Position numbers and translations under genes: made by a program. A stretch of DNA of 64,000 nt. Source: a virus. Below are positions 9,001 through 25,490 of this stretch, piece after piece. Position 1 is the stretch's first letter, and each line of letters begins with the position of its first letter. The DNA lies in the IMG/VR virus record IMGVR_UViG_3300010149_000010. One strand, given 5' to 3'. Below the pieces are notes generated by a model. That model did no database searches, had not been told where the DNA came from, and was given only the letters and a program-made list of their open reading frames with translations.

Positions 9001-9161
9001 ATTTTTGTGGAAACTCTAGATCTTAAAGTTTTCCACGCATATTCCAACCCCTCTTTATGCACTGATATTGCTGTAGGTGGAATATGAAGCTCAATATCGT
9101 TAATTACAAAATTAGCTTCTTGAGAATTAAACAGATCAGGAATGTTATTCAATTCACGCAT
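3..9161 (-). CDS. Giant baseplate hub / tail-tip protein (>3053 aa, runs off window start) with Peptidase M15-like and Amidase_2-like peptidoglycan hydrolase domains
   Basis: ATG at 9161 directly after the stop of the 2395-aa gene (MRELNNIPDLFNSQEANFVINDIELHIPP...). Frame checked open at 9161, about 6285, 6009, 5628 and 3-60, and the track lists no stop-terminated minus ORF here. SNHFTGGAAD...GIGIYG...FIHLD at about 6000-6370 (M15 HxxxxxxD/HxD). IMLHHGG...SSHFGI...HAGNFNANSIG...IVSH...KYD at about 5150-5660 (amidase Zn ligands). AFPTFRLYLIEE...LRPGVTVQLRAGY...ITVQSFG at about 2010-2435 resembles a hub domain. Confidence 0.8.
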   Translation of the reverse strand, partial: MRELNNIPDLFNSQEANFVINDIELHIPPTAISVHKEGLEYAWKTLRSRVSTKIASGNGNYHAQVSITFAPDSLLLLHRLISQVRNNPFVSIQNSFIQQSISDTHAVATQINYFTVFGLNIANHPSSPGAFLVELDLRYFNYKPFGRSLTFRKDYTVKVEDKGSVKEYVHSIFPTYKGTPDQRKPLLKYSKNLKRSNNTIRDLSPPNGNNPLSLSRQAISRSRSVVTDPRKSNAYKRYSNFLQLKYLNESFGINVVKGTENIEEFVPNEVFVDEEVYNLFQGTAYEGNIKRPSVVGIHELKVNGIKNDKLLKFRKDLTHSILLSGLNTRIVTKEYKSLNLGGNFLFRHRKSLRKGIVKGMNEKSQNEVIKKNKQKIFKLFKDYEAKKEAVINEAKPVTSGLTLSAPQDRDLRLAIDPISQEYSLPIQRSLQAFGYYSPGSNVFITGTSNAGYKVQNTQEWDENNSSNLAFAVMTIRAGKITYSNNGEIIITNGSGVKEEKIVYSGVQEQENLRYWIKAQEGKVFPAGTIVGYFDTNNEFTINASGQLINDLCLTLTGKALEEKYVKSSKVVKRSVSKVSLGNDNETYLTEKDLPYINSIKRVIEEEGFSQYQYRSGLENVFQKALILSFDSNLFEEDVKAITGKDTFGVNSDSFPKFEQDITNVSCSLRNIISSIPVLGYEYPTHQFLGSIEPSYQFNFIGYTGIGDGLPPKIKELENVRAHTAYMAKNFPQIPDAANIVVESLITKLVGSFKYADNDEKVVEFNNKQEAVIRDIKPRFLISSVDTFTIEGSPGAVGLNLRFSESKCYDEEEVRAAKSSEVDENYLSRYASVIQQSGINIGPQGGSAVSSNARSYSTAKYVNHYWNTIYFGAKSFYAHSKKHLRTQIKNQGLEKILVGDIDKNAFEFCKDYLDPLQKFLNIYLKHRAISGTNPKNFAINAFSTLDRQLDGRSRDTASNHFTGGAADIYINNMNVCEAAAIIELLEERRFFFDSIGKRKGKRNRRRIFGIGIYGSAIGGQSGRISGTGANAGPTAAIFNDNLMPNTAGSFIHLDVNFVVNHANKIGSSWNVRDSRRRWGGKEDPYRFIDQKKFWNEDIAIIKAYIRKSGFDDALKEYYKQQDQKGVIINGKGYEIDTRGLFEFENFTQNEKINIQTDHADGQIGRAPRDLDDIKFIMLHHGGHNAEFLKRTWAGTTTSSHFGISYKKDGTIIASQMVDAAYQANHAGNFNANSIGFDFALSPVTSNAKRYGFEVIDNPGPDGPRQILKFPDKLIEAACHFINELHRIVPGIPSVPKMFSNDLTDEPNLNSRDVPLATVIDGSYTIVSHSHSHGTKYDVQYLLPRIYEVFDSGDLPTNDDAVEESSDLDNDEAEEIEEGDLAKEDKTALKEDTRESADIEAYKLTSTKPEDFITFLSDNNLVDTNAIKSLYQETVTPASITFQAVIPERKVRRYNFEISQAGNKYEIKFFPPKGKKKLSEEQKAVIKAVTRYYGKELKVNIQTSTEYGTKTVQSVVPGSLGMDRFSGVAKTQFASRVITDKSDLKSKSLFFNVGEVNAKSAQRDALTRAKLNNNKLLKSFTELASLMLTEPYLYTDSAKEFEDEMKFIQKELYNFPVLPAFYTSTERLFTGVTSLSTGAILSEANNISKSTKGVALTASAIGTGITLHRISQALFFAGTKINPAGWVISGVFLALEMYGVWDALGGNLDSQGKSQLERVTAGMASHGKFLKDKESFKLYIKYFEENKNFLIGEGVNISVKGGRKIGDFLTEIGRADTVRSGINNHVKPIFSELSIFEKFNKVASELDASSRALNLIRRSLKDSEGIYDKNGNINAKLANFALAEELTLKEMKNYLRFLFTFPAVNTTGPDEEDHHHILKIDKTNKTISYLKQSESDPYYWPNTRNPAQIKSDPEALKNENRFPYLVTYQIKNKNGLKEYFNTIKGKEALKNENRFKIAYLRKLLSAILEEHMSLNPKIVENSRDATLLKVLDGSTVFELLEENAYPDIDLPQDPNNLYSNSNLSPCFYYHDGNDILDTMVKSAKEKEFAAADKILNSSIQFQKGLRNGIFTGPESKLEGNESATKIVNELVDSTEVLRSISEFMITGESDEKKMAYGAPIKIGVFDNTEKVSEEAQINVTVSESMVSSSSNAVPAIIKTVTKTVAETNKAIDSRYNKELSRLSSAFGSSLGFKIKDDFLKEIKKSGDKELNRTLGEQIEQDYGKESIMGLSEDSSKNIYKLKTMKNAFPTFRLYLIEEDEIYTDRLTAFDDFFYYNSVISFNVHNSRELAASTATIQLQNISGVLDGTKKRALRDVDLDPNVKEENFKKEGNFIDSIVLRPGVTVQLRAGYESNTNELDVLISGKIADINYAQNNSICNITVQSFGVELTALRKGNGNKNKNSAHAFYSTHQLLGSMMLSDELKHFGRSKVGAVFQFGEYKDFSLDLDIYKKESSFNFSLSRNFFDWVSDNTFGIGIGVGLLTFGMPLLKMGAKTTFVTKITSWYAGAGKGAAFARGVGRYVNAVFVKPISFINPFGISQRAKDLIIKRAQNLSNLVARSSTKNPLAAQLAGYAPVINTFDDALEYLIRANRYNLAPGTFGPLGMEALKLNSIGGLNSLVVNTGGRFAALRSNVIAHGYLNGSVVTLFQKIAQILTAGKYQAGNKLGEEFLKQVIVKQRGFGALGMSGLGPSLMSKTWLGSKIGVDILARGYSSITLPLAVGFTGGLVTSVMLAGADVIIDSAKFMYYSMLGSFSEDKNKLKKKKLLSPQDDNIFSPHPKQYMINVPSTTYSYWDSLASAGSEWVEAMSKESKKLINNSTWGMINITNDSKLKDLKLSPFSLVDKRLDVAQYENTFIVNGQTIWDILHECTLRHPGYIYGVRPYGNSLEYRVFFGVPSQRYWSKKISNNQIRKLNAIYVALKEANGGALSMKNIGELFPRELALSNDTDSSNGDKLKKFFTEKAYDYFIKKTKDRFVPFRQFHLVSSKRNLVSNNVIVSSHNMINAVSVNFINNRKDLDGSQEGLSPNDWSPHLSKFGDQIETLRFRANRNISMN

Positions 9162-9164
9162 ATT

Positions 9165-12100
9165 TTAATCTCTCATCATTTTATTAATATAGGCATTACC
9201 TATCGGCCTTCTATTGTCGTTGACAGTCAGTGACGCCTGCCCTCCAGCCGATACAAAGTGCTTGCCCATAGTTTGAGCTGCAGAAAGGCTTGGAGCCTCT
9301 CCGTACATCTTAATTGAACGATTCAATGATACAGTACTCACTCCGCTATTGATAGGTCTTTCATAAAAATTATCAATCCCATTTATCTTACCTGGGCTTA
9401 CGTTTCCGTGCTCTCTACTAAAACTTTGTTGCAAAGCTCTATTGCTTAAACCTTGCCCCGCTTTTAAAGCTTCTTTAGAGATAGAATCGGAAAATTTACC
9501 TCCAGGTTCAAGCGAGCTGCTTGGCGAATTTGCTCCCACAGCATACGAAGCCAAAAGCGAACCTGCAATTACTCCAGCCAAACCCTTGCTCCTGCTAACG
9601 GTTTCGCTAAAAGCACTTCTAGCAGAATCTACTTTAGAAAAAATCGATTCTATTTCATCAAGCTCGCCAGTAATCACTCCACCTTCCATTGAAAAACCCT
9701 TGTTCATTAGTTGGAACAATTGCTGGCTGTTAAACCTAGAAGAACCTTCTAATTTTCTTCCAAGTGCCTTGTTAGATGTAAAATCGTTAAATCCATATTT
9801 TTTTACATTTCTAGCCATAACATCAAAAGAGTCAAATATTTCTTGGACATTTAAATTTACGTCTCCTAGAGCTTCTCTAAACTTTTTCGTTGCATTACCT
9901 TCTCCTAAGTTATGGAACTCAATTGACTTTGCATCTATTTTTAAGTTGCCTTCAGCATTTTCCAACAAAGTTCCTTTGAATATCTTGTCCTGGAAAAAGC
10001 TTTTTAGAGCATCGCCCTTACCCGTATTAAAAGATGTTTTTAAAGCACTTAGGTATTCCCTAGAAATGTTAGCAGCAATCGGAAGCTTCTTGCCTTTAAT
10101 TCCTAAAACTTCTTGAGCCACTGATATTAAAGCTGCTCCACTTTGAATTTTTTTAAATTGAGCTGCAAAATCTCCACTAGTATCATCTGCAGCAGACTGT
10201 GCAAGTCCCAGCATTCCTGCTTTAACTTGCACATCTAGACCACCAATTCCCTTTACTATTTGTTCTTTCTGGTACTCGTCTACAATGGACTGAGCAACTG
10301 TCATTTGTGAGGCTCCCATGCGCTTCCCTAGCTTCTCTACACCTTCCCCAAGCAGGCTCATGTTAGTTAGAAACTCTGCACCATAAGTGTACATTTTTTT
10401 TGCGTCGATCCCTTGGTTTTTCATTTTATTTTTTAAAGTCTTGTCTACATCAAAAAATACCTGATAAGGATCCGCGTCAAAGTCTCCAATGCCAAACCTT
10501 GCAAAATCCATGCGCCCAGAAAAGGCAGTCCTTTTACCTGTATTTACATCTTCTATTTGCATGCTCATGTCTATTTGAGGAAACCTTACAGTCCCTCCTC
10601 CATGCTCGCCTTTCTCTAAGTGCTTGTTAAGCATATCTTTATATATACCACCATAAGCACTAACTTGCTCTTCGTTTAGTTTTCCGCTTTCTTTCAACAA
10701 TCTTAGTTCAGCCAAATCGGCACCTGTTTTAACTTCTCTTCCCAAAACATCGTCTAGGATTTTTAAAGGCCTGCTTATACCAGGCGCTCTTGGCTGAGTT
10801 TTGTTTCCTTGAAAATCTGTATCTAAACCGCTTACTTCAGGAGCGTTGTTCATTATTTTTTCATCTATATCTTTTATAGTTATATCACCTTCATTTTCTA
10901 TTGATTCTTTTTGAGCATTTTCTATTAATTGTTTTTGAGCTTTGATTTCGTCTTCTTCTTGATTTAATCTTTCTATTTCTTCGAAAAGCGCTTTTCTGCG
11001 TTTTTGTTTACCCCTAAAAGGGTTTTTTTCCATTTCGTTAAGATCGCGCGTTGCTCTTTGTGAAATTTCTCTTTGTGAATAGAAATTTGACGCTCTATCT
11101 TTCACCTCTGACATTTTTACTTCTTCTCCTCTAGCTTCTCTTCTGATTACATCGTAGGCGTCTATCTTTGTAGCTTGAGGCGCAAGAGTGTAATTGCTGT
11201 TTTCATTAAGGACTTTTCTTACCCTTCCTCTGTTTCGAGAACTTATCCTCTCTAAGAACGGTTCGAGACTTTCTTCTGTAACCATGCCTTTTTTTCGTGC
11301 CGCTATAATTTCTTCAGAAACTGCTGGCCCCACTCCTTTTAGCTGCATCAATTCCTCTTTTGTTGCTAAGTTTAAATTCACAACACTCGCTCCACCACTT
11401 CTTACTTCTTTTATCCTCTGCGATATTTGCTCCCTATTCATATTGATTTTGCTCCGACCCTTGTTGTCAGGTTGAGCTAGTTCTTCTAAAGGGTTCAATT
11501 TACTCCCCGTTTGATTTCCATACTCATCAAGTAAGGGTACGTTTTTTCCAGAAAACTTTCTTGCTAAAAACTCGTTTTCAAAGCCTTCCAAGCTTCTCAA
11601 GTGAGTTTTATTGTCAGCATTAAAACCAAAAAAAGGTCCCATTTCGTTTATGAATCCAATAGCCTCTTTTTTATTTTCGAAATGCCTAAAAGAAGATGTC
11701 AACCTACCTTCATCTACACTCCTTCCATATGCTCCAACGTCTTCTATAGTTTCTGTGAACTCTCTTTCTAAACTACGTCTTATGTTTCCTTCAGAGACAT
11801 CACCGCCTCCAAGAACAGCCCTTCCGTAAACGTCTTTATTTTTATCAGCAGCGGTAATTTGTTCGTTAATTTTATGTATTTTATTATCAATAATTTTTGC
11901 TTCTTCATTAAGACCTTTAAGTTCCTCTGCCTTTTTGCTATATTCTGTAGTTTTTGTTGAACCAGCTTTATTAAACTTCTTAATTTGTTCAATTATCGGC
12001 TCGGCCTTTTTTTTTATTTTTGAAAACTGATCTTGCAAAAGAGCTACTTTACTATGACGTTTAGCTTGTGCTGCACCTACGTCTTCAGCAAGAAGGTTCA

Positions 12101-15100
12101 AATTACTTTCTTGAGGTAGGTTTCCTGAAAATACACCATGCCGCCTCTCTATAAACCCTCCAGGTTCTTCTAAAATCTTTGAAGCATCTCGCCTTTTGTT
12201 TAAAAGGGACTCCCTTTCAGCAACAAACTTTTCGTAACCTTCTTCACCTTTTATACTGGCTCTTTCTTGTTTGATTTCTTGCCTTTTGGCATAAACTTCT
12301 TGCCCCCTAGTATAAACAGCATCTCTTTCATCAAGTTTTTCTAAACCAGTAACCCCTTTTAATATTTCCGAAACTTTATCTTGGTTTAATGATTTTCTAA
12401 TCTTTTTAAGATGCTCTACATAATCCGGTGTAAACTCTTCTCCTTTTTCTACATTTCTTAAAAACTGTAGTGGTTTTAGCTCTTTTTCAAAATCGTATTG
12501 ATAAATACCCATGCTTGCAAAAATGTGTGAAAAACCTATGAGAGGATTTCTTTGTATCGTTCCAGAAATTCCTTCTTTTTTGCTTCGATGCATGCCAGTA
12601 AAAAAGGCTTCCAAAGTCTCTTCCATTATTTTGTTTGTTTCTTTTTTGGTAGAGACTTTACCTTGAGAAGCTAAATGTTTATTTATTGCTGATTCGTAGG
12701 TACCCATTCCATCTAGGAAAGCCTGTTGATCCATAAATGCAACATAGCCCATTTCTTTGTTTACCACTTCAGACAAAGAGTCTACAATTTGCTTTTGAAC
12801 ATTCAGATCATCGCTAAAGATTGTAGCTCCAACGCCTTTTTTTCCTAAAGTGAACCCACCTCCCATATAAGAGCCTGATCCTAAGATTTTACCACTTAGT
12901 GTACTCCTGATCGCTGTACCCGTTATTTTGCTTAATCTTTTTCTAACTTCAGTAAAGCCTGAAATTGATTTTTCGATTTCATCTTCATCAGTTCCAGCAT
13001 CCTTCAACGAAGATAAAGATGATAGCAAGTCTGTAATATTTCTTCCGTATTCAGCTTCTACTTTTATGACTTCATCACTCGACCTGATCTCATGGCCTAA
13101 AAACCCTTGAAAGGTATCTTCTCCTGGGAGAAATATTTCTTTTTTGCCTCCAGTAAATTCGTACAGCCTATCCAGCCCCTCTTTAGAGAGGCCCATTTTT
13201 TCTAAATCAAGTATGTTCCCTCCTTTCCTGGCAGACAGTTTTTCAACGACTTCTTTCTCTTTGCCTTGCCCAAGGTCTAAAAGTTCAGTTACCTCTTCTT
13301 CGGTTAGTTTACCAACATCGCTTAAACCTGATATCTGCTCTTTTATATTTGTTGCATCAAGCTTTCCAAGAGATTCTTGTGTCAGCTTCATTCCCATCAA
13401 GCCTCCAGCGCGACTTTCGAATCCTTCCATTCTGGTTATCATTGAAGAAACGTATCCCGTCGCTTCTTTTGAATCCATCCCCCAAAAGGATCTTAAAGAA
13501 GAATAAAGATAGTTCGCAAACCTTGGTTCAGCCTTAGCTACGCTTCTGCCCAGGTCTGTATGTGGAGTACCAACAGTTCCAAACGCAGCACCGATTACCA
13601 CACCTCTTTTTGCTGTCTCTTCGATTTTACTTAAATAGGGATCAACATCAACTACACCCGCGTCTTTTAAACCCGCAGCTATTTTTCTTTCAAAATATTC
13701 TAAGTTTAAACCAAACTTTTTATTGCTTGCTTGGTTTCTAGCATAAGACATTACCATTCCAAAATGATCAGCACTTATTCCTTCATCACCAGCCCTTTTT
13801 GCAATTGTTTGAAAGAACTTCCCTAAAGTTGAAGCGCTTTTTTGCTTTGCAGACACTTGGTCTACATTTGTTAGCGTGCTTTTAAAATCACCCAATTGGT
13901 TGTCATTTATTTCGGTAAGCAATTCATCTGCATTGTCTAAAGACCCCATACTAGTATTTAATGCTTTGTCCATTGCTGCTTCATCCAACCCGAGCATCTT
14001 CATACCTCCGTGTATCTGCGTACGCAGATACCCAGCAGACTTTCCCAATTGAGCTGTTGTGGTAAGCAAGGTGTTCTCTATCCTTCCCCCAAAACCGTCT
14101 TTATTGAAAAACACCTCTCCAATGTCACGAACACCCAACTCTTCCAGTTTCTTCAACATAGAAGATTCATTAATTGTAAGCGTTGTGTCTTTGGCTAAAG
14201 AAGAGAATAGTTTGCTATAATCAACGTCTTGCAACACTTGGCCTTTAAGATGGTAGCGGTCCCTTCCTGTTTCCATGCTTTTTTCAGAAAGCCCAAGCGT
14301 AAATCTTTTCATACCTTTGTGACGTTTGATGTGCACAATTCTGTCGTCTTGTTTTCCTAAAACAGCACGCCCTTCAGAATCTCCAAATTGTTTGAAAAAA
14401 TCATCAATATCGTAATCGTCACCATCAACGAGTGAACCTATAGTTAAAAACTTTCTGTTATTGTCTTTTGAAGCATTTAAAACTTCCGTCAATAACTTGC
14501 TCTGGTTAATACCTTCTTTGTTTATGGTTTTTGTATAACCTTTTTTAACCTGAATGGTGCCCCCCATATAACTCATCCCTTCACCAAGGCCTAATTGAGC
14601 AGCAGGGTTTTTTATTTTTTTTGCTCCGTGTTGTGCTTCTTCAAGTTTTTCAAAAATCATAATAGCGCCAAAGTTTACGCCTCTGATATTTTTAGATACT
14701 TCCTTATCACTGGTGATTCCAATCAATTCATTGCTTGCCCCAGATATTTTAATGTCTCCCTTTTTTCCAAAAGTAGCGTCTCTTTCAACACCTGCAAACC
14801 CTGCTGCTAATTCGGGTCTTCCGTAAACTTGACCAGCACGCGCTGTTTGAGGCACTAAACTGCGGTCCAGTCGCCCATACCTTTTCATCGCATTGAAGGC
14901 CGTTTTTGTTTTTGTTCCAGAATCATTCTCCAGTCGCTCAATATGACCTACTATCATTTCTCTTTTTAAATCAAATGGATCCTTAAATCTAGAAGTCAAA
15001 GTTTGCGAACCTGAAGTACCTCCATAAATTTCTGACTCATATTGAAGTATTTTTTTCGTTACTTGCTCCCTGTCTTTTTGTGCAAATTTTTCCAGTCCAG

Positions 15101-16352
15101 CAATTCTATGTATTGATGATTGAAAAGCTCGAGAATCTATAAGTGTAGACATCAAGTCTTTGTCGATTAAATTTATTTCTTTTCCACCATTAATTGTTCT
15201 GCTTGAATTCAATCCTTCAATCATTGTTCTTGGGGTCTCTATTGACATCGACCTAATATAGTCATTGTACTCATTTATATTTGTCACGCTAAAATTTTGA
15301 AAAGACTGTTTGTTTTCTTTTATCAATCCAAATAAATGATCTTCTAAGCTCATTGTAGCGTCTTTTAGCGCAGCTGCTGCCCCAGTCCCCTTTGGGGTTG
15401 CTAACTGATTCAAATCTAAACTAGGGAAAATTTTTGCAGCGTCTATTACACCCCCACTAGTAGTGTACCGTGTAGACATATTCTCCGTCCCTCTTATTAT
15501 TGTCATTCCAGATCTTGGGTCTTTAGCCAGGTCTAAAGCTACGTTTTGAAACCTCCCACTGCTATGCTCTACTCTCGCATAAGTAGACTTACCTTCACCT
15601 GGTCCATACTCTTCTAAAGATACTAATTGTATATTCTTTCCTGAAGCCATGGATTTAAGTTCCCCATATTTCTTCGTCGCTTTTCTACTCAGATCACTTG
15701 TCGATGCTGACTTCCACTCTACAGTGGAGGTTCCTTCTGTTGTGAAATCTTTGAAGGTGGTATTGAATTGGCCTTTTGTTTTCATCATTGAAGAGTGTCT
15801 TTTTTTGAATTCTTGCAACTTTGGACCGCTAGTACTTACACTACTTTTATAAAAATCAATAGCAGTCCGCATATCAACCTGTTCGATGTTTCCTGTTTCA
15901 ACACCTTGGTACAGTTTTTCTAACGATGCTTTTAGTGATCCCGAATCATCAATCATGCTTTCGCTAGCAGTATCAAAAAGTGCTGACAAAAAAGCCCTTG
16001 CTTCATTTGCGGAAGATGTTTCATTAAACATTCTTTCTAGGTTCTCACTACTTAAAATCTCCTCTTTAAAAGTTTTAAGTGCTACTTTCCTGCTTTCGTT
16101 TACAACACTCTTTAACCTTTCAGCATCTTTTCTAATTATGCTTCCTGCCCGACCTAACTCATTTTGCGAAGCAGAAGAGTTCTTTAAAGCCCCTAAGCTC
16201 TTCTTTACACCTGATGTTAAATTTACATTCTCGTTTAACAGGTAGGCTGTCCCAGCCACAGCAGCGGCTCCTATTACTGTGCGTCCAGTGTTTTTTATAT
16301 TCGACACTTCTTTATCTTTTTGCTGCTCATTTAATAGATTTATTAAAGACAT
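9165..16352 (-). CDS. 2395-aa tape-measure-locus protein, candidate virion (tail-delivered) two-barrel RNA polymerase with ComEA-like HhH insert
   Basis: GIGDFDADPY (10470-10484, D1957/D1959/D1961); QRNP (12543-12551); upstream GLGEGMSYM and KLFSSLAK; downstream KGIGGLD and AQEVLGIKGK; HhH VNLNLATKEELMQLKGVGPAVSEEIIAAR (about 11290-11382); lies between the tape measure and hub genes. Confidence 0.65.
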   Translation of the reverse strand: MSLINLLNEQQKDKEVSNIKNTGRTVIGAAAVAGTAYLLNENVNLTSGVKKSLGALKNSSASQNELGRAGSIIRKDAERLKSVVNESRKVALKTFKEEILSSENLERMFNETSSANEARAFLSALFDTASESMIDDSGSLKASLEKLYQGVETGNIEQVDMRTAIDFYKSSVSTSGPKLQEFKKRHSSMMKTKGQFNTTFKDFTTEGTSTVEWKSASTSDLSRKATKKYGELKSMASGKNIQLVSLEEYGPGEGKSTYARVEHSSGRFQNVALDLAKDPRSGMTIIRGTENMSTRYTTSGGVIDAAKIFPSLDLNQLATPKGTGAAAALKDATMSLEDHLFGLIKENKQSFQNFSVTNINEYNDYIRSMSIETPRTMIEGLNSSRTINGGKEINLIDKDLMSTLIDSRAFQSSIHRIAGLEKFAQKDREQVTKKILQYESEIYGGTSGSQTLTSRFKDPFDLKREMIVGHIERLENDSGTKTKTAFNAMKRYGRLDRSLVPQTARAGQVYGRPELAAGFAGVERDATFGKKGDIKISGASNELIGITSDKEVSKNIRGVNFGAIMIFEKLEEAQHGAKKIKNPAAQLGLGEGMSYMGGTIQVKKGYTKTINKEGINQSKLLTEVLNASKDNNRKFLTIGSLVDGDDYDIDDFFKQFGDSEGRAVLGKQDDRIVHIKRHKGMKRFTLGLSEKSMETGRDRYHLKGQVLQDVDYSKLFSSLAKDTTLTINESSMLKKLEELGVRDIGEVFFNKDGFGGRIENTLLTTTAQLGKSAGYLRTQIHGGMKMLGLDEAAMDKALNTSMGSLDNADELLTEINDNQLGDFKSTLTNVDQVSAKQKSASTLGKFFQTIAKRAGDEGISADHFGMVMSYARNQASNKKFGLNLEYFERKIAAGLKDAGVVDVDPYLSKIEETAKRGVVIGAAFGTVGTPHTDLGRSVAKAEPRFANYLYSSLRSFWGMDSKEATGYVSSMITRMEGFESRAGGLMGMKLTQESLGKLDATNIKEQISGLSDVGKLTEEEVTELLDLGQGKEKEVVEKLSARKGGNILDLEKMGLSKEGLDRLYEFTGGKKEIFLPGEDTFQGFLGHEIRSSDEVIKVEAEYGRNITDLLSSLSSLKDAGTDEDEIEKSISGFTEVRKRLSKITGTAIRSTLSGKILGSGSYMGGGFTLGKKGVGATIFSDDLNVQKQIVDSLSEVVNKEMGYVAFMDQQAFLDGMGTYESAINKHLASQGKVSTKKETNKIMEETLEAFFTGMHRSKKEGISGTIQRNPLIGFSHIFASMGIYQYDFEKELKPLQFLRNVEKGEEFTPDYVEHLKKIRKSLNQDKVSEILKGVTGLEKLDERDAVYTRGQEVYAKRQEIKQERASIKGEEGYEKFVAERESLLNKRRDASKILEEPGGFIERRHGVFSGNLPQESNLNLLAEDVGAAQAKRHSKVALLQDQFSKIKKKAEPIIEQIKKFNKAGSTKTTEYSKKAEELKGLNEEAKIIDNKIHKINEQITAADKNKDVYGRAVLGGGDVSEGNIRRSLEREFTETIEDVGAYGRSVDEGRLTSSFRHFENKKEAIGFINEMGPFFGFNADNKTHLRSLEGFENEFLARKFSGKNVPLLDEYGNQTGSKLNPLEELAQPDNKGRSKINMNREQISQRIKEVRSGGASVVNLNLATKEELMQLKGVGPAVSEEIIAARKKGMVTEESLEPFLERISSRNRGRVRKVLNENSNYTLAPQATKIDAYDVIRREARGEEVKMSEVKDRASNFYSQREISQRATRDLNEMEKNPFRGKQKRRKALFEEIERLNQEEDEIKAQKQLIENAQKESIENEGDITIKDIDEKIMNNAPEVSGLDTDFQGNKTQPRAPGISRPLKILDDVLGREVKTGADLAELRLLKESGKLNEEQVSAYGGIYKDMLNKHLEKGEHGGGTVRFPQIDMSMQIEDVNTGKRTAFSGRMDFARFGIGDFDADPYQVFFDVDKTLKNKMKNQGIDAKKMYTYGAEFLTNMSLLGEGVEKLGKRMGASQMTVAQSIVDEYQKEQIVKGIGGLDVQVKAGMLGLAQSAADDTSGDFAAQFKKIQSGAALISVAQEVLGIKGKKLPIAANISREYLSALKTSFNTGKGDALKSFFQDKIFKGTLLENAEGNLKIDAKSIEFHNLGEGNATKKFREALGDVNLNVQEIFDSFDVMARNVKKYGFNDFTSNKALGRKLEGSSRFNSQQLFQLMNKGFSMEGGVITGELDEIESIFSKVDSARSAFSETVSRSKGLAGVIAGSLLASYAVGANSPSSSLEPGGKFSDSISKEALKAGQGLSNRALQQSFSREHGNVSPGKINGIDNFYERPINSGVSTVSLNRSIKMYGEAPSLSAAQTMGKHFVSAGGQASLTVNDNRRPIGNAYINKMMRD

Positions 16353-16353
16353 T

Positions 16354-19300
16354 TTAACCTCTTATCGCTAAACTTAACATTGACAGGATCTCAGTGCTCC
16401 TATCGTCGTTGTAATGTATTTCCGCTCTACTATTTTCATAAGGAGCGTGAGAAGTGTTTATTAAGGATTTACTAAAATCTATTCCCGTAGAATTCTTCAT
16501 TCCTCTTATAAGCCTGTTTCTTGCAGAGCTTCTTGATGGGCCTGGGCTCTCGTACATGAACATGTCAGAACCTTCCAAGTATGGCCTTCTCGAGGCTCTT
16601 CTAACTTGGCTATTCCAGACGTCATAATCGTGTGTCTCTTGACTGCTATTGTCTATGTATTTTACTTTAACATCTTCGATATCGACATCTTTGTGCCATC
16701 CGATCCAATCAGGCCCAGGTAGAGGTTTATTTATAAAGTACTTTTCAACCTCTTGCAATTGCTGACTCATATAGCCAGGATCTATGTTTGCTTTAGCACC
16801 TGCACCCATTAATGTCAATTTTTCACCGCTATCAACTCTGCCCCATACAGCTTTATAAAGATGCACTTGGTCTTCAGGTACAAGCTCTAGTATTTTTTCT
16901 CGATCAGCTTCTCTTGCATTTGCAAAAGCGTCAAAAAATCTTTTTTCTGCATTCGGAAGGGATAAGTACATGCTTAAAGCATCTCCATTAGGATTCACTC
17001 CCGTCCTAGTTTGAGCTGCCATCTTCATGTATCTTTGACGGTCCTTGCCATTCTCTGCACCTTGTGCAAGCTGCATAAACTTTAAAAATTGTAATTTATC
17101 AAAATGGCTGTCTAATTCTTCTCTTTTAGTTACATGTAATGGTTTTCCGCCCCACCCCATTAGGTTAGCTGCACTATACAAAGCTGGTCTGAACCAGTCC
17201 CTTACGTGCTTGTCCCAAAAAGCGTTTGTCGTACCGTAAACTCTTTCCTGCTCGTAAGCTTCTATTGCGGACCTTGTTTTACCCAAAAGTTTTTGCGTTG
17301 GTCTAAACCCGCCTGGAATTAAATATTCCGCAGGCGCACTCACTTTTCTAATTATGCTTTCTGCACCTTGATATAAACTTTTGGTGATATCTGATACTAC
17401 AGGAATTTTAATAGCATTTTTCGCATACTCAAAGTCCCTAGTAGGTGCGAGCTTTTTTCTATGTGCTTCAGAAGCGTTTTCTAAAATTCTATTTTCTAAA
17501 TCAGTTGTAAGCCCAGCGACTCTTCTTTCCATTAGTTGATTTCTTAACCGAATAGTCTCTCTCGATTTAGGCGACAAATCAGAGAGTATCTTGTACTTAT
17601 GTATGTCCGGATAGTCTTCTGGATCTAGACCTTCTACCTCTGGGTTTAAAGCTTCATAAGCTTTTCCAGGCATTCTAGAAAACCCATTTGGAATCGATCT
17701 GTATGGGTCTCCCCTCCTGTATCTTGCAGGCATCCATGAAGGCATTGTGTTGGCAATTGGGTTGTACTTTTCAATTGTAGATCTTGGTCGAGGAAGAATT
17801 CTTCTTATTGGCTCTGAAGTAAAACCTAGCCCACCCAAATCCATATCCCAATAATCTAGCACTCCAGAATCCATGTCTGAAGAAGAGGCCATTTGAAAAT
17901 CTCTTGTACCTATTGTTTCCCTACCGGTTACCAGTTTTTGCAAATAGTTTTTTGTATAACCAGTAAGACCCTCTATTTCTCTGAACTGATACTGCACTTC
18001 TCCTAAAAGCGAAGACGTAGAGTAGGGGCTTTTTGGAACTCCTGGCCCCATTTGGCCTAAAGCTTTACTAGATCCAAACTCTTGCAAGTAGGTGTGCTCG
18101 ACTTGCCCTTTGTCGTTGATTTGCATCAACTCTTCTTCATGCATTAGCCTTGGGGGTTTTATTAACCGACCAATTGTATTTGAAAGTATGCTCCCAATAA
18201 CGGGCACATCTTCAAAAGCAGAGCCACTTATTGGGTAAGGCCTATCATAGTAATTTTTCTCTTCCAAATGGTAAGTAAAATTCTTCAACATAAAACGGCT
18301 TAAAGGAGAGTATTCTTCTGTTTCATCTCCCCAAACAGCTTTCTCTTTTGCTTGCGTCATTAAAGATACATAAGCATGCGGCCTAAAATAACTAGTTTCA
18401 TTCCCTCCCAAAGGCGTCCCGCCACCTTCCCACCATCTTCCTTTTTTAATTTCTACAAGCTTTTTACCAGAATAAATTTCTTTTAGTTCATCTGGGTTTT
18501 CCATTGTACCAAAAAGGCTTCCCGTTAAAAGCTGATGTGTTGCTGCAACCCCTAAAAATAAAGCTCCAAATCTTCTTAAAATAGGTGAAGCATTTAAACT
18601 TTTAGCAAACTCATCGTAAGTCTTAGTTACTTCTTCACCGTTAACCATTCTTGTTACGTCCCCTTTCATCGGGGCGCCCAAGAATGAATGAAATATTTCT
18701 GCTCCAAGTATCTCAGTACGCCTTAGCGTGTTGTCTAAAATGCTTCCGGATTTATATTTACTGTTTATTATTTCAATTCTATCTAATAAAGATCTATTTA
18801 AATCATTGGATTTGTAATTATTATCATAAACGTCTGATCTAATTTTTGCATTTATATTATATTCAAAATCTAAGATTTCTTTCTCTCTTTTCGACACATC
18901 TGTAATGTTTCCGACAATTTGAAATAGATCTTTATTTTTATTAAAAAAAGTACCTAACTTTTTTATTTCTGAATTCTCTAAATCTCCTGCCCCTTTATTT
19001 TTAATTATTTCGTCAATACGCCTCGTATACTCTTTTATTTCCGGCGAGCCCGCATGTAGATTTGAAATCTCCTCACCAAGAGGGTTGTATTTCATAAAAT
19101 TTTCGCTGTAATTGCCACTTCCAGATTTTATTGGTACTAATGCATCATATAACGCTGATGCTTTTACTTGCTTACTTGTTAGAGGTATATCTACTTTTCC
19201 AGTTTTGGCGGAAGCAACTAAACCCACCCTGTCTTTTATAAAATCTGGCACAACTTTTTTTGCAATCTTATCTATTGCACTCAAATTATTGTCTGCGCTC

Positions 19301-20751
19301 TTTCTTAAATATTCACTTCCGTATCCTGAATATGACAAAGCAGCAGCGCCTAAACCTAAAAACAAACCAGTAGTTGCATCTGTGAAGCCAGGCATTATCC
19401 CTTCTATGCCTCTCTTTACATAAGACATTCCTGTGATTTGCCCTAGGTAAGATCGACCTATGTCCAGGTTTACAGCTGTAGTTGCTACCCCCTCTATGAT
19501 ACCTTTATCAAAACCTGGAGCCAGTAGTTGCGCTAAAAAAGCTGCCCCGCCGACTTTTGTTGGCGTGAATTTTCCTCCACCTTTGGACATCTTATCATAC
19601 AAATAAGCAAATCCAACGCTTGTGCCTGCTGAAGCAATTAAGTTACCTGCACTGCCATGATTCCTTCTGTAGTGGTCAATTGTAGCTAGCCCAATACTAG
19701 CTGCGCCAATCTTGCTGGCCTTGTAACCTATTTCAAAAAATTGCTTATAAAACGGCCCAGGCTTGGTAGTAAGGCCTAAGCCTGTAGCGTCTGCAAAAGC
19801 ACTAAGATGTTTTCCTAAAATAGGTATCTGCTCTTTTGTAGCTGATATAACTCTATTGAATCTATTTAAACCTGCTGACAAGTAAGCCGTTGGGTAGGCA
19901 GTTCTTCTTCTTAAATCTTCTAATGAAGAAAAACTACCTTTCGCTGAAGCTATTAAACCTAACCTCTCTACGCTACCGTCAGAACCTTTAAAAATATCTT
20001 CAAAGACTACTCCTGGCACGTCCATGTTCTGTACAGAGCCTTGATAAGCAGGATTGATTTTTCCTGAAAGGTTTAGTTCCTCTATCAAATCATAAGGGTC
20101 TGCTGAGTAACGTAAATTTTGCACGGCCACATCGCTAGACAAAAGTTTTGATGCGCCTTTTTTCGTCTTTAGTTTAGTTTCAATTCCAGTTTGCTTGCCA
20201 GTTGAATCAACAACTGGCTCTTGAAACTCTTCAAGCTCTTCAAAGATTAATCTCCCCCGACCCCTTTGTTTAGATTCTTGCTCGTAAACAAGCCTGAACC
20301 TATCGTCATCAGTAGAGAAATGAGTGGCTATGTCTGAATAAGAGTCCTCGCCAATAATACCCTTAACTAGGTTCCTTGTACTTTCTTTGCTTAAGGAGTC
20401 TGAAGAAAAAACATATTTGTGCATTTCCTTAGAGTCTAAAGATGAGACTCCCTTCTCCATGCCCAACGCTTCTGGAGAAAGATATGGGCTCATGAATTCA
20501 GGTAACCTAAAAGTATTTGCAAACCCAAAAGGAGTTTTGTTTGCTAAGTTTCTTATCTGCCGCTGCAAGATATCATATTTAGTATAAGTGTTTTTACTAC
20601 CACCATACTGGCTATTCATTAAGAAATGTGCCCCAGCAAGTCCTGCTGCATATGGTGTCAAGGATAGCGCCCCTTCTATTAGAGGGTGCATATCAGGTTC
20701 AGCCGCTACAGCTGAATAAAAAACACTACCAGGACCTTGTTGAGTAAACAT
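16354..20751 (-). CDS. Tape measure-like protein (1465 aa)
   Basis: Immediately follows two tail chaperone genes; helical, with several Gly/Ala-rich hydrophobic segments (e.g. GLFLGLGAAALSY, FGALFLGVAATHQLL). Confidence 0.65.
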   Translation of the reverse strand: MFTQQGPGSVFYSAVAAEPDMHPLIEGALSLTPYAAGLAGAHFLMNSQYGGSKNTYTKYDILQRQIRNLANKTPFGFANTFRLPEFMSPYLSPEALGMEKGVSSLDSKEMHKYVFSSDSLSKESTRNLVKGIIGEDSYSDIATHFSTDDDRFRLVYEQESKQRGRGRLIFEELEEFQEPVVDSTGKQTGIETKLKTKKGASKLLSSDVAVQNLRYSADPYDLIEELNLSGKINPAYQGSVQNMDVPGVVFEDIFKGSDGSVERLGLIASAKGSFSSLEDLRRRTAYPTAYLSAGLNRFNRVISATKEQIPILGKHLSAFADATGLGLTTKPGPFYKQFFEIGYKASKIGAASIGLATIDHYRRNHGSAGNLIASAGTSVGFAYLYDKMSKGGGKFTPTKVGGAAFLAQLLAPGFDKGIIEGVATTAVNLDIGRSYLGQITGMSYVKRGIEGIMPGFTDATTGLFLGLGAAALSYSGYGSEYLRKSADNNLSAIDKIAKKVVPDFIKDRVGLVASAKTGKVDIPLTSKQVKASALYDALVPIKSGSGNYSENFMKYNPLGEEISNLHAGSPEIKEYTRRIDEIIKNKGAGDLENSEIKKLGTFFNKNKDLFQIVGNITDVSKREKEILDFEYNINAKIRSDVYDNNYKSNDLNRSLLDRIEIINSKYKSGSILDNTLRRTEILGAEIFHSFLGAPMKGDVTRMVNGEEVTKTYDEFAKSLNASPILRRFGALFLGVAATHQLLTGSLFGTMENPDELKEIYSGKKLVEIKKGRWWEGGGTPLGGNETSYFRPHAYVSLMTQAKEKAVWGDETEEYSPLSRFMLKNFTYHLEEKNYYDRPYPISGSAFEDVPVIGSILSNTIGRLIKPPRLMHEEELMQINDKGQVEHTYLQEFGSSKALGQMGPGVPKSPYSTSSLLGEVQYQFREIEGLTGYTKNYLQKLVTGRETIGTRDFQMASSSDMDSGVLDYWDMDLGGLGFTSEPIRRILPRPRSTIEKYNPIANTMPSWMPARYRRGDPYRSIPNGFSRMPGKAYEALNPEVEGLDPEDYPDIHKYKILSDLSPKSRETIRLRNQLMERRVAGLTTDLENRILENASEAHRKKLAPTRDFEYAKNAIKIPVVSDITKSLYQGAESIIRKVSAPAEYLIPGGFRPTQKLLGKTRSAIEAYEQERVYGTTNAFWDKHVRDWFRPALYSAANLMGWGGKPLHVTKREELDSHFDKLQFLKFMQLAQGAENGKDRQRYMKMAAQTRTGVNPNGDALSMYLSLPNAEKRFFDAFANAREADREKILELVPEDQVHLYKAVWGRVDSGEKLTLMGAGAKANIDPGYMSQQLQEVEKYFINKPLPGPDWIGWHKDVDIEDVKVKYIDNSSQETHDYDVWNSQVRRASRRPYLEGSDMFMYESPGPSRSSARNRLIRGMKNSTGIDFSKSLINTSHAPYENSRAEIHYNDDRSTEILSMLSLAIRG

Positions 20752-20757
20752 TGTGAG

Positions 20758-21468
20758 CTACCTTTTATCTAGAGATCTAAGCTGCGAAGCGCTCAATTTC
20801 TCCTTATTCAGTCTGTTCATTTCTTCTTTTAAAAATTCCTGTTCGACTTCTTGCAATTCCCAGTAACCCAACTCTTTTTCTAGAAGCTGAGAATCGTTTA
20901 CATAGTGCGTTTCACTTTCAGGTTCTTTTGCACCCGCGTCAGGATCTTCATCTTGAATATTATACATTTCCTTATATATATTTTCTAGATTGATTCTTTC
21001 AAATCCTGATTTAGTTTTAGACAATAAATTTTCAGCTGCAACAAAATTTTTCAAAAATTGTTTTTCTGTCATATTCTCAATATCAATTGGAGCGATACTG
21101 TTAAACGCAGAAAAAATAGTACAACGCATATGCTCGTATATGCTGTCTATAGGGTTCAGTTTTCTTTCATTGGCAATTGCCAATAAAAATTCTTCTCCAC
21201 TATTGTCCCCCGACAACTTGTATATAAGCTCGCCAGTGCTAATTCCATAACCAGCAGGTAAAGAATTAGGTAAATAAGCAGTATTCACCAAACAGCACAA
21301 GTTGAATATTTCATCGTAAAGCAAATAAGGTGGTACGTTGCTATTTAACAATTTATTGAATAGATTAAACTCTTTTATTTTAAGTAATCTAAATTCAAAA
21401 GTGCAGAACTCATCAAATGCAATGCAATATAAATCACAGTCTGATTCTAAGACTTTTTTTAAATCCAT
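20758..21468 (-). CDS. Tail assembly chaperone-like protein (236 aa)
   Basis: Position before the tape measure gene; FEFRLL...C.L...LPAG...IYKLSG pattern mirrors the C-terminal domain of the upstream 303-aa protein. Confidence 0.55.
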   Translation of the reverse strand: MDLKKVLESDCDLYCIAFDEFCTFEFRLLKIKEFNLFNKLLNSNVPPYLLYDEIFNLCCLVNTAYLPNSLPAGYGISTGELIYKLSGDNSGEEFLLAIANERKLNPIDSIYEHMRCTIFSAFNSIAPIDIENMTEKQFLKNFVAAENLLSKTKSGFERINLENIYKEMYNIQDEDPDAGAKEPESETHYVNDSQLLEKELGYWELQEVEQEFLKEEMNRLNKEKLSASQLRSLDKR

Positions 21469-21482: not shown

Positions 21483-22394
21483 CTAAAGCTGAGTAGTCAG
21501 TAACATTGACTGTTGCGGTGTTAAAAATCCAGAATTCAACAAAATCATCTGATAAAGAGAATCTAGTATACCCGCTTTGCAATACTCTAACCACCGCTCC
21601 TCTAAAGATGGCCACAGCACGCAGTAAAGAACTACTTTTTCTTTTAACTTTTCTTCAACTTCGTCAGGGTTTTGGCTCTCTTTTAATTTGTTCATTAACT
21701 CTTTTATTTTTCTCCACTCACCCCGAGTGAGGTGGTGATAGATATAAACCTCACCTTCTCCAAACGCCATTACATGGATTCCATTTTTCCCGTAAGCTTC
21801 TTTCCATGAGGATATCAAGTCTAAACTAGGTGGGTTTTTTTCACTACTCAACAACTCAAGAATCTGGTCTTTAAGGTCCACCTGCCCGCTGACTTCAGCT
21901 TGTGGCATTTCCTCCATAATTTCTTTCTCTTCTGATGCGATTGAATCTTCTAATGCTTTGAGTTCTTCTTCTAAGTTCATAGTTATAATCTCCGGTTCTG
22001 GTGTTGATTCTATTAATGCTTTAATGATGGTTGGTTCTTCTTCAGTTACTTCAACTTCTTTAGCAGGGGCAATTTTCACTTTTGCTTTTTTTTCAAGTTG
22101 ACGCTCTTTACTTTTTTCTAAAGCGGCCGCCTTTTTCTTTTCAAGCCTTTTTCTTTTCAATTCTTTTGCATTAGAAAGCTTTTCTTTTTCAGCTTCCACT
22201 TTTAACATTTCCGCTGTCGCGACTTTTTCAGCTTCTGTAAGCTTTGGCGCTGGTATGAAAGCGCTAGGCGGTAAGCTTTGAATGATTTGGTCGGCTGTAG
22301 GAGAGCCCCTTTCAAGGGCGTTTTTAGCCTTATCATTTAAAGGCTCTCCAAACATTACTAGATTTTGATTAAGCTTTTTACCTTTTATAGCCAT
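21483..22394 (-). CDS. Tail assembly chaperone (303 aa) with long charged N-terminal extension
   Basis: C-terminal IYHHLTRGEW...CVLWP...KAGILDSL...ILLNSGF; located between tube genes and tape measure. Confidence 0.6.
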   Translation of the reverse strand: MAIKGKKLNQNLVMFGEPLNDKAKNALERGSPTADQIIQSLPPSAFIPAPKLTEAEKVATAEMLKVEAEKEKLSNAKELKRKRLEKKKAAALEKSKERQLEKKAKVKIAPAKEVEVTEEEPTIIKALIESTPEPEIITMNLEEELKALEDSIASEEKEIMEEMPQAEVSGQVDLKDQILELLSSEKNPPSLDLISSWKEAYGKNGIHVMAFGEGEVYIYHHLTRGEWRKIKELMNKLKESQNPDEVEEKLKEKVVLYCVLWPSLEERWLEYCKAGILDSLYQMILLNSGFLTPQQSMLLTTQL

Positions 22395-22877: not shown

Positions 22878-22880
22878 AAT

Positions 22881-25487: not shown

Positions 25488-25490
25488 AAT

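What the first reader, a model, noticed from the sequence alone, without database searches (positions are those of the whole stretch)
9165..20751. Two adjacent tape-measure-like giants share terminal signatures, suggesting a heteromeric tape
The C-termini are LTV-NDNR-RPIGNAYINKMMRD and IHY-NDDR-STEILSMLSLAIRG: ND[ND]R followed by exactly 14 residues with penultimate Arg in both. Both also have one hydrophobic segment near the N-terminus (AAVAGTAYLLN; AAGLAGAHFLMN). Inference: both chains dock in the baseplate by the same C-terminal motif, so the candidate RNAP is loaded through the tail tube. The two chaperone paralogs upstream may each serve one chain.
Basis: partly seen in the sequence, partly recalled or inferred. 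Interest (0 to 1): 0.7.

Follow-up and report, generated by a model that had tools for sequence, protein, structure and literature searches.

The report
Two tail giants share end signatures
Two huge neighbouring tail proteins of an uncultured marine phage carry the same kind of short signature at both ends, conserved in over a hundred related phages, which suggests (but does not prove) that both are loaded into and anchored in the tail in the same way, one of them probably being an injected RNA polymerase.

Summary
P0002 (16354-20751, 1465 aa) and P0001 (9165-16352, 2395 aa) both end in strand / ND-x-R / 14 residues. ND[ND]R occurs nowhere else in the window's 43,066 aa of six-frame ORFs.

The window is a contractile-tailed phage of the Bacillus phage 0305phi8-36 lineage. 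The two giants are the gp145-like and gp146-like ("hypothetical tape measure") proteins, lying between a split chaperone pair and a giant hub.

The C-terminal D-x-R signature is kept in 113/116 gp145-like and 121/126 gp146-like homologues. Profiles of the two families align in register (P=7e-4). Its length and last residues tend to change together between lineages, but that trend is weak (P about 0.04). The N-terminal likeness is only a shared Gly/Ala-rich apolar segment.

Neither protein looks like a classical ruler. The C-terminal half of P0002 folds as a conserved globular domain. P0001 carries an invariant DxD(G/A)D loop and an RxP motif separated by a helix-rich insertion that explains 79% of family length variation. 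Its closest precedent is the tape-measure-fused RNA polymerase of Thermus phage P23-45; the polymerase fold itself was not shown here. This scan reached the polymerase reading before on another genome (e1-2797372, same family).

"Heteromeric tape" and hub docking remain untested. The chaperones fit a G/GT-like pair better than one per chain.

The parts
16354..20751 (-). Giant 1 (P0002, 1465 aa), gp145-like virion protein
   Evidence: ORF, translation. tblastn matches 0305phi8-36 ORF145, ME3 gp035, WH1 gp096 and Moorella MTATph1. Synteny. 299 homologues of nearly constant length.
20617..20667 (-). Giant 1 N-terminal Gly/Ala-rich apolar segment (residues 29-45)
   Evidence: present in 111/116 homologues.
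19315..19377 (-). Giant 1 internal Gly-rich apolar segment (residues 459-479)
   Evidence: The N-terminal HMM also hits 467-502.
18502..18570 (-). Giant 1 internal apolar segment (residues 728-750)
16432..18504 (-). Giant 1 conserved globular, mostly helical region (about residues 750-1440)
   Evidence: Alignment A2 has 56% mean column identity and many invariant W/P/G/Y/R. AF2 gives pLDDT 75.6 and pTM 0.71. No solved-structure match. Only uncharacterised phage relatives in BFVD.
16357..16425 (-). Giant 1 C-terminal signature: alternating strand, ND-D-R, then a 14-residue amphipathic tail (residues 1443-1465)
9165..16352 (-). Giant 2 (P0001, 2395 aa), at the position of 0305phi8-36 gp146 ('hypothetical tape measure'); candidate tail-delivered two-barrel RNA polymerase
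16236..16277 (-). Giant 2 N-terminal Gly/Ala-rich apolar segment (residues 26-39)
   Evidence: present in 116/120 homologues.
12540..12554 (-). Conserved R-x-P motif (QRNPL, residues 1267-1271), followed by G/S-H; resembles the RxP of the catalytic barrel of two-barrel polymerases
   Evidence: The resemblance to beta-prime/RdRP motifs is recalled from knowledge, not tested.
10803..12485 (-). Variable, helix-former-rich insertion between the RxP and DxDxD motifs (about residues 1290-1850)
   Evidence: The RxP-to-DxDxD distance ranges 110-1493 aa in 101 homologues, r=0.92 with protein length, 79% of length variance. Composition.
11286..11387 (-). ComEA-like helix-hairpin-helix inside the insertion (residues 1656-1689)
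   Evidence: Pfam HHH_3 E=6e-7. ComEA chains in the PDB, E=0.017.
10470..10487 (-). GDFDAD loop (residues 1956-1961), candidate metal-binding catalytic loop
   Evidence: The three Asp are kept in nearly all of about 90 distant representatives, mostly as DxDGD, always 411-501 aa from the C-end.
9531..9584 (-). Giant 2 C-proximal Gly/Ala-rich apolar segment (residues 2257-2274)
   Evidence: Hit by the family's own N-terminal HMM. Equivalents in ME3 gp036 and 0305 gp146.
9168..9236 (-). Giant 2 C-terminal signature: strand, ND-N-R, then a 14-residue tail (residues 2373-2395)
21483..22394 (-). First tail chaperone-like gene (303 aa)
   Evidence: Position as 0305phi8-36 gp143. Its residues 206-289 align with residues 13-87 of the next gene (hhalign P=0.021).
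20758..21468 (-). Second tail chaperone-like gene (236 aa)
   Evidence: Position as gp144.
3..9161 (-). Giant baseplate hub/lysin (first 3053 aa lie in the window), gp147-like
   Evidence: Matches phrog_20474 in three separated pieces, plus Amidase_2. Same position in all loci.

Best explanation
The two giants are the conserved gp145-like (P0002) and gp146-like (P0001) virion proteins of the 0305phi8-36 lineage of contractile-tailed phages. They are translated back to back (1 nt apart), between a split G/GT-type tail chaperone pair and a giant gp27-like hub.

Their shared ends are most likely a common tail-interior loading and anchoring code. The extreme C-terminus (a short strand, an acidic-x-Arg turn, then a 13-16-residue amphipathic tail) would anchor each chain at equivalent or pseudo-equivalent sites of the hub, where tail assembly starts. 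The Gly/Ala-rich apolar segments are glycine-zipper-like elements that would be shielded by the chaperones during assembly and would insert into the host membrane after ejection.

The two proteins are not two strands of one uniform ruler. P0002 contributes a constant-size chain with a conserved globular domain of unknown activity. P0001 is a probable two-barrel RNA polymerase whose catalytic barrel is split by a variable helical insertion. That insertion is the only ruler-like, length-variable part.

On contraction both would leave through the tube ahead of the DNA. The polymerase would then refold and transcribe the first genes, as proposed for Thermus phage P23-45 gp96.

Shown here: synteny, conservation of the signatures, in-register profile similarity, the globular fold of the P0002 C-terminal half, invariance of the DxDxD loop, and the single variable insertion.

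Inferred: location in the tail lumen, docking to the hub, membrane insertion, and polymerase activity.
For: - Synteny (chaperone, chaperone, giant 1, giant 2, hub) holds in every locus examined: six IMG/VR loci, five isolates, five further metagenome loci and two gene tables.
- Both 0305phi8-36 orthologues are annotated as found in virions by mass spectrometry.
- The C-terminal signature is conserved in both families. Profiles align in register with P=7e-4, and there is one-way HMM cross-detection at the exact C-end with E=0.02.
- Hardies 2007 found that only the last 60 residues of gp146 are conserved with BtI1/BwK1.
- Tail length after the Arg is equal in the two proteins in 17 of 21 pairs, after correcting two double-Arg cases by eye. 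Both change to 15 residues ending in Tyr in L013 and L014. Cognate tails are more alike than shuffled pairings, P=0.02 for 13 pairs and 0.044 for 8 lineages.
- The N-terminal apolar segment is present in over 95% of both families with matching position, length and composition.
- The P0002 C-terminal half is globular.
- In P0001 the DxD(G/A)D loop is invariant, the RxP motif is conserved, one insertion explains 79% of length variance, and an HhH lies inside it.
- Precedent: the P23-45 tape-measure-fused virion polymerase plus a second non-virion polymerase. This window also encodes a second polymerase-like protein with a GDNDGD loop.
- Geometry: three copies of each 0305phi8-36 giant would fill about 29% of a 486 nm x 4 nm lumen. 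The 486 nm length and 4 nm bore are taken from memory.
Against: - There is no direct evidence of location, stoichiometry or binding.
- The profile similarity of the ends is short and only moderately significant (hhalign probability about 26-27%). The reverse C-terminal HMM and both N-terminal HMMs fail to cross-detect.
- The covariation test is borderline and not independent of phylogeny. It is not significant for the last 8 residues or for tail length in the 8-lineage subset.
- The motif is degenerate or absent in ME3 gp035 and in giant 2 of WH1, KLEB27-3 and Moorella. The tails differ in 0305phi8-36 (16 vs 24 residues).
- A roughly 780-aa globular domain would not fit a 4 nm bore unless it is elongated or unfolded.
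- The polymerase fold of P0001 was not demonstrated. The AF2 model of residues 1836-2395 is poor (pLDDT 57). There are no fold hits. hhalign to P23-45 gp96 and to the window's YonO-like family puts motif on motif but with P=0.19 and 0.26.
Confidence: 0.45

Rival explanations
1. True heteromeric tape measure. Both chains run the full length of the tube side by side, jointly set tail length, and dock by the same motif.
For: Shared signatures at both ends. Adjacent, tightly coupled genes behind the chaperones. Both orthologues are virion proteins.
Against: Giant 1 length is nearly constant (about 1370-1495 aa) while giant 2 ranges from 1644 to 3265 aa within the same clade, so the two cannot be co-linear. 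Half of giant 1 is a compact conserved domain. The stretch before the conserved domain is about 620-700 aa both in 0305phi8-36 gp145 and here, although 0305phi8-36 has an exceptionally long tail, which Hardies 2007 correlates with gp146.
Confidence: 0.1
2. Relic of common descent without a common site. The two genes arose by an ancient duplication of a tail-interior gene and kept similar ends for protein-specific reasons, for example each forming its own trimer. They sit at different places: giant 1 inside the hub/baseplate and giant 2 in the tube.
For: The likeness is confined to short terminal stretches with low profile probability. There is no cross-detection in three of four HMM tests. Paralogous domains are common in this lineage's tail module (Hardies 2007; four tube paralogues).
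Against: The register to the very C-end is the same, and changes of tail length and end residues are partly coordinated between lineages. That fits a shared constraint better than independent drift. No similarity exists between the bodies of the two proteins.
Confidence: 0.2
3. The ends are processing or export signals rather than anchors. The C-terminal D-x-R stretch would be a maturation cleavage or chaperone-release site (lambda gpH is trimmed at its C-terminus). The apolar segments would be only membrane-insertion elements used after ejection.
For: The signature lies at the extreme end. Gly/Ala-rich apolar segments recur inside both proteins, as expected for membrane-active ejection proteins. 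Tape measure proteins commonly carry such segments (PMC10770324).
Against: No protease specificity of this kind is known to me for this lineage. The residues after the Arg are themselves conserved and amphipathic, which is unusual for a discarded peptide.
Confidence: 0.1
4. Chance or compositional resemblance of no functional meaning.
For: The motifs are short. The pattern was picked after looking at the sequence.
Against: ND[ND]R occurs only at these two C-ends in 43,066 aa. It is conserved over more than 200 homologues. The profile alignment is in register.
Confidence: 0.03

Closest known systems
Bacillus phage 0305phi8-36 gp145 (virion structural protein) and gp146 (hypothetical tape measure protein), with chaperonins gp143/gp144 and hub gp147 (Thomas et al. 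2007; Hardies et al. 2007, PMC2147016)
   Same: Identical gene order. P0002 is homologous to gp145 (about 30% identity over residues 742-1388). P0001 sits in the gp146 slot and shares its C-proximal apolar segment and a terminal (S/N)D-D/N-R element. The hub matches the gp147 PHROG.
   Different: No detectable similarity between the bodies of P0001 and gp146. gp146 lacks the DxDxD loop. The papers do not mention a signature shared by gp145 and gp146, or any function for gp145.
Thermus phage P23-45 gp96, tape-measure-fused virion two-barrel RNA polymerase, with non-virion polymerase gp64 (Chaban et al. 2024, PMC10770324)
   Same: A giant protein at the tape-measure locus with a conserved DFDGD-type loop and otherwise no sequence similarity to known polymerases. 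Apolar segments are present. A second polymerase-like gene lies elsewhere in the genome.
   Different: gp96 belongs to a non-contractile tail, has its polymerase at the N-terminus (DFDGD at 779 of 5002), and has no gp145-like partner gene. Here the loop lies about 435 aa from the C-end and the putative barrel is split by a 110-1493-aa insertion. Similarity is not significant beyond the motif (P=0.19). The gp96 C-terminus shows no D-x-R signature.
Classical tape measure proteins (lambda gpH, T4 gp29), whose distal end is held in the tip or hub
   Same: Locus behind the chaperones and before the hub; terminal anchoring as the proposed role of the C-end; apolar segments (textbook knowledge).
   Different: No Pfam or PHROG tape-measure family matches. 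There are two proteins instead of one. Large globular or enzymatic parts are present.
Lumen cargo of extracellular contractile injection systems (Serratia Afp18, Photorhabdus PVC payloads), loaded beside the ruler by N-terminal packaging signals (from memory)
   Same: It works alike in concept: a large non-ruler protein is carried inside a contractile tube next to the length-determining protein and is selected by a short terminal signal.
   Different: These are bacterial particles, not phages. The signals are unrelated in sequence as far as I know. No homology was tested here.
Lambda gpG/gpGT tail assembly chaperones
   Same: Two genes just upstream that share one domain (C-part of the first with the N-part of the second) (Hardies 2007).
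   Different: No frameshift. The shared domain is supported only weakly here (P=0.021).

Membership tests
Tail tape measure protein (ruler) | Gene lies between the tail chaperone pair and the hub/distal tail genes | tested here: met
   Met for both giants. P0002 is directly behind the chaperones and P0001 is one gene further on.
Tail tape measure protein (ruler) | Protein length scales with tail length | not testable with these tools
   There are no tail measurements for the metagenomic phages. Hardies 2007 assigns gp146 by this criterion. Thomas 2007 is not held.
Tail tape measure protein (ruler) | Extended, mostly helical chain without large compact domains | tested here: not met
   P0002 residues 690-1465 form a confident compact model (pTM 0.71). 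In P0001 only the 1290-1850 insertion is rich in helix formers. The remainder of P0001 is inconclusive.
Tail tape measure protein (ruler) | Match to a curated tape-measure family model | tested here: not met
   No Pfam or PHROG hit for either protein.
Two-barrel RNA polymerase (P23-45 gp96 / YonO / QDE-1 type) | Conserved DxDxD metal-binding loop | tested here: met
   DxD(G/A)D is present in nearly all representatives, at a fixed distance from the C-end.
Two-barrel RNA polymerase (P23-45 gp96 / YonO / QDE-1 type) | Two double-psi beta-barrel domains forming the active site | tested here: inconclusive
   The AF2 model of residues 1836-2395 has pLDDT 57 and shows only a hairpin before the loop. 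No significant fold hits. hhalign places motif on motif but is not significant. The upstream half, with the RxP and GK motifs, was not folded.
Two-barrel RNA polymerase (P23-45 gp96 / YonO / QDE-1 type) | Template-dependent RNA synthesis; presence in the virion | not testable with these tools
   Needs biochemistry and proteomics.
0305phi8-36 gp145 family | Sequence homology over the conserved C-terminal region, and the same locus | tested here: met
   tblastn E=2e-14 to 1e-49 to ORF145, ME3 gp035 and WH1 gp096. Foldseek BFVD hit to A7KUR9 and relatives. Synteny.
Lambda G/GT-type chaperone pair | Two products sharing one domain, encoded just upstream of the tape measure | tested here: inconclusive
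   hhalign aligns residues 206-289 with 13-87, P=0.021, probability 2%. BLASTP E=0.37. The geometry agrees with Hardies 2007.

The most novel reading that the evidence does not exclude
Contractile-tailed phages of this widespread, mostly marine lineage load two different giant proteins into the tail interior by one shared bipartite terminal code: an N-proximal glycine-zipper segment plus a C-terminal strand/D-x-R/helix anchor that fits pseudo-equivalent sites of the trimeric hub. One protein is a split-barrel RNA polymerase whose ruler is inserted inside its catalytic barrel, which keeps it inactive until ejection. The other is a constant partner that builds the membrane conduit. If so, the code would be a general, transferable address for putting cargo into a phage tail.
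Probability: 0.2. Interest if true: 0.75.

Novelty: new variant of a known kind. Interest (0 to 1): 0.5.

Why it matters
How proteins other than the ruler get into a phage tail, and how a 250-kDa polymerase can be delivered through a 4-nm tube, are open questions. At present there is one published example, P23-45.

A short terminal code shared by two co-encoded tail giants, conserved in hundreds of uncultured phages, gives a concrete and mutable handle. Swapping or deleting about 25 residues would test tail-interior loading.

It also re-opens the question of which protein measures the tail in the 0305phi8-36 lineage. And it shows that gp145-like proteins, which have been unannotated since 2007, form a large and strongly conserved family.

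Tried and rejected
- Complex prediction of three copies of each C-terminal 60-mer (collected) gave no verdict (score 0.04). It counts neither for nor against binding.
- I did not try the hub with the C-termini. The hub's gp27-like part is split into pieces at residues 18-145, 2193-2400 and about 2960-3020 and would exceed the chain and size limits.
- Sequence searches of P0001 and P0002 against the PDB found only the ComEA-type HhH.
- Pfam and PHROGs gave no family for either giant or for the chaperones.
- Foldseek and VIA-align searches of both models against the PDB gave nothing above noise. Two plant RNA polymerase IV/V largest subunits appear at Z 4.4-4.6 among many unrelated helical hits, and I do not count them.
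- hhalign of the giant 2 family against P23-45 gp96 1-1200 and against the window's YonO-like family was not significant.
- Pfam on giant 2 of 0305phi8-36, ME3, WH1 and KLEB27-3 gave nothing, so the DnaQ-like motif I saw by eye in gp146 is unconfirmed.
- The tail-length comparison failed. Thomas 2007 is not held. BpSp is an unrelated phage. The papers on phage G, the moraphages and Aeromonas giant phages gave nothing usable.
- The supplements of PMC10770324 do not list ME3 or 0305phi8-36.
- No whole genome is held for this window.
- One full-length MAFFT run timed out and was redone on a subset.

Full report
What is in the window. All genes from about 55,000 down to 1 run on the minus strand and form a phage structural module. 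It holds a large terminase, portal, major capsid protein, sheath and four tube paralogues, then two small genes, then three giants of 1465 aa, 2395 aa and more than 3053 aa.

tblastn of the 1465-aa protein (P0002) finds Bacillus phage 0305phi8-36 ORF145, Acinetobacter phage ME3 gp035, Bacillus phage WH1 gp096 and Moorella phage MTATph1. The annotated records show the same order everywhere: sheath, tube paralogues, two 'tail chaperonins', gp145-like giant, a second giant (gp146, 'hypothetical tape measure protein'), and a hub/lysin giant.

So the 'two adjacent giants' are a known, conserved feature of the 0305phi8-36 lineage. The GenBank notes say that both gp145 and gp146 were detected in virions by mass spectrometry. 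Hardies et al. [quoted passage not shown] They found only its last 60 residues conserved in the prophage-like relatives, and they read gp143/gp144 as a lambda G/GT pair without a frameshift.

The observation. The quoted C-termini are exact. ND[ND]R occurs twice in the 43,066 aa of all six-frame ORFs of the window, and both occurrences are 18 residues from the ends of these two proteins. The genes are 1 nt apart, and the hub gene starts 3 nt after giant 2.

Conservation of the C-terminal signature. Six IMG/VR loci, 37 close and about 140 distant homologues of giant 2 and 299 homologues of giant 1 were collected.
- In giant 1 the end reads: alternating strand, (N)D-x-R, two residues, Glu, then an amphipathic tail.
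- In giant 2 it reads: Gly-Gly, alternating strand, (N)D-x-R, x-Pro-Ile-(Ser/Thr), then an amphipathic tail.
- D-x-R or DR is present in 113/116, 37/37 and 84/89 sequences.
- The two last-70-residue profiles align over 27 columns in exact register, P=7e-4.
- The giant 1 HMM, built without the window's sequence, picks the extreme end of P0001 as the best non-self hit among 341 ORFs (E=0.02). The reverse HMM does not find P0002.

In cognate pairs the number of residues after the Arg is the same in 17 of 21. This count follows my correction of two double-Arg cases. In two distant lineages (L013, L014) both proteins switch together to 15 residues ending in Tyr. In L017 both proteins end in Met-Gly-Tyr, followed by one extra residue in giant 2.

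A permutation test shows cognate tails to be more alike than shuffled pairings: P=0.02 for 13 pairs and P=0.044 for 8 lineages. The test is not significant for the last eight residues or for tail length alone, and the pairs are not phylogenetically independent. I therefore treat covariation as suggestive only.

Outside the marine/metagenomic clade the signature decays. 0305phi8-36 keeps it, but with tails of 16 and 24 residues. ME3 gp035 lacks it, and giant 2 of WH1, KLEB27-3 and Moorella lack the Arg.

The N-terminal signature. More than 95% of both families have a run of about 15 residues, free of charged and amide side chains, starting near residue 25 and made of about 22% Gly, 22% Ala and 13% Leu. 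hhalign gives P=7e-4. The HMMs do not cross-detect the other giant. Instead they find further segments of the same kind inside the same protein (P0002 467-502; P0001 2242-2313). A loosely defined apolar run occurs in 13 of 37 long window ORFs. This is therefore a shared class of segment at a shared position, not a specific motif.

What the proteins are: giant 1. Giant 1 has a nearly constant length of about 1370-1495 aa. Its last 776 residues are very conserved (56% mean column identity, with dozens of invariant Trp, Pro, Gly, Tyr and Arg) and fold with confidence into a compact, mostly helical structure (pLDDT 75.6, pTM 0.71). That structure has no counterpart among solved structures. In BFVD it matches only uncharacterised phage relatives, one of which is labelled 'large polyvalent protein associated domain'. 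This half is not tape-like. The N-terminal half is less conserved, apart from the leader and a Gly-rich apolar block at 300-480.

What the proteins are: giant 2. Giant 2 has three conserved parts:
- an N-part of about 1100-1320 aa;
- an R-x-P...(G/S)-H motif (QRNPL at 1267);
- a C-part of 411-501 aa that begins with an invariant DxD(G/A)D loop (GDFDAD at 1956) and ends with the signature.

Between the RxP motif and the loop lies one insertion of 110 to 1493 aa. It accounts for 79% of the variance in protein length (r=0.92, 101 proteins) and is rich in helix-forming, charged residues. In this phage it contains a ComEA-like helix-hairpin-helix.

An RxP motif followed by DxDGD is the signature of the catalytic barrel of two-barrel RNA polymerases (Iyer et al. 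2021; the rest is my own knowledge). The DFDGD motif alone is how the tape-measure-fused virion polymerase gp96 of Thermus phage P23-45 was discovered. That phage also has a second, non-virion polymerase. This window likewise encodes a 2174-aa protein with a GDNDGD loop and a related HhH, and 0305phi8-36 has a YonO-like polymerase.

I could not show the fold. The model of residues 1836-2395 is poor (pLDDT 57). Fold searches are empty. Profile comparisons with gp96 and with the YonO-like family put loop on loop but are not significant (P=0.19 and 0.26).

An earlier follow-up in this scan (e1-2797372) reached the polymerase reading for a 3221-aa protein. My profile search places that protein in the same family (P0188, E=8e-74; identity confirmed). 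That is a lead that agrees with mine, not independent proof.

The chaperones. The two small genes share only the C-terminal third of the first with the N-terminal third of the second (P=0.021 with seven-sequence profiles; BLASTP E=0.37). The support is weak, but the geometry is the one Hardies described. It fits a G/GT-like pair acting together better than one chaperone per giant.

Reading. The simplest account of two co-translated virion giants that sit between the chaperones and the hub and share both an end-anchored C-terminal signature and chaperone- or membrane-type apolar segments is this: both are assembled into the tail interior by the same route and leave it together. The C-terminal element is the best candidate for the hub contact, because tail assembly starts on the hub and the distal end of known tape measures is held there (textbook knowledge). 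The pseudo-sixfold ring of a trimeric gp27-like hub could offer two sets of three similar sites; this is inference.

The data argue against a uniform two-stranded ruler, because one partner has constant length and is half globular while the other varies through a single insertion. In 0305phi8-36 the part of gp145 before the conserved domain is no longer than it is here (about 620 vs 700 aa), although that phage has an extremely long tail, so giant 1 is not the ruler there. If anything measures, it is the insertion in giant 2. That would place the ruler inside the polymerase's catalytic barrel and would keep the enzyme open and inactive while it is stretched in the tube. This is an attractive inference, but only an inference.

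A volume estimate shows that three copies of both 0305phi8-36 giants would fill about 29% of the lumen (the tail length and bore are from memory).

Novelty. The pair and its synteny are known from 2007, and tape-measure-fused polymerases from 2024. I found no description of the shared terminal signatures, the size and conservation of the gp145-like family, or the single variable insertion between RxP and DxDxD (searches; papers read). I class the finding as a new variant of a known kind, with moderate interest. The central mechanistic claim of common docking is plausible and testable, but it is not demonstrated.

Noticed in passing
window 60003-63998 (+), continuing beyond the window: This is the start of a 2174-aa protein (P0302) with a GDNDGD loop at residue 981 and an apolar, signal-peptide-like N-terminus. 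Its HHH_3 motif is 48% identical over 27 aa to the HhH of P0001. It is probably the second (YonO-like) polymerase of the phage.
   Followed up: partly
L001:18966-26579 (0305phi8-36 gp146): By eye the protein contains a DnaQ-type Exo I-like motif (D-I-E-T-T-G) where the marine giant 2 proteins have the polymerase-like core. Pfam finds nothing, so this is unconfirmed. If real, the giants in this slot carry different nucleic-acid enzymes in different clades.
   Followed up: partly
L011:7459-14612 (Bacillus phage KLEB27-3): The gp145-like gene is annotated as two CDS (gp031 of 1340 aa and gp033 of 677 aa) separated by a 211-aa gene (gp032). This could be a mobile insertion or intron splitting the gene.
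   Followed up: no
L009:17375-22888 (Moorella phage MTATph1): Giant 2 is short (1309 aa), lacks the C-terminal signature, and is followed by a transposase gene. It may be a disrupted gene.
   Followed up: no
window 9531-9584 and 19315-19377, 18502-18570: Gly/Ala-rich apolar (glycine-zipper-like) segments recur inside both giants. The C-proximal one of giant 2 lies about 120-140 aa before the end, and also does so in ME3 gp036 and 0305phi8-36 gp146. In the PDB search it weakly matched the apolar Ala/Gly-rich segment of prion protein.
   Followed up: partly
window 3-9161 (-): The hub giant matches the gp147-type PHROG in three widely separated pieces (residues 18-145, 2193-2400, about 2960-3020). 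The gp27-like hub domain therefore seems to be interrupted by very large insertions, including an Amidase_2 domain at 1171-1283.
   Followed up: partly
window 22413-26435 (-): Four consecutive genes all match the same PHROG (phrog_9206), which is labelled 'major head protein' there but annotated as tail tube/tube paralogue in 0305phi8-36. The PHROG label is misleading.
   Followed up: no
L014:1908-11226, L016:329-11631: In distant relatives the giant 1 and giant 2 genes overlap by 4-11 nt. This suggests translational coupling of the pair.
   Followed up: no
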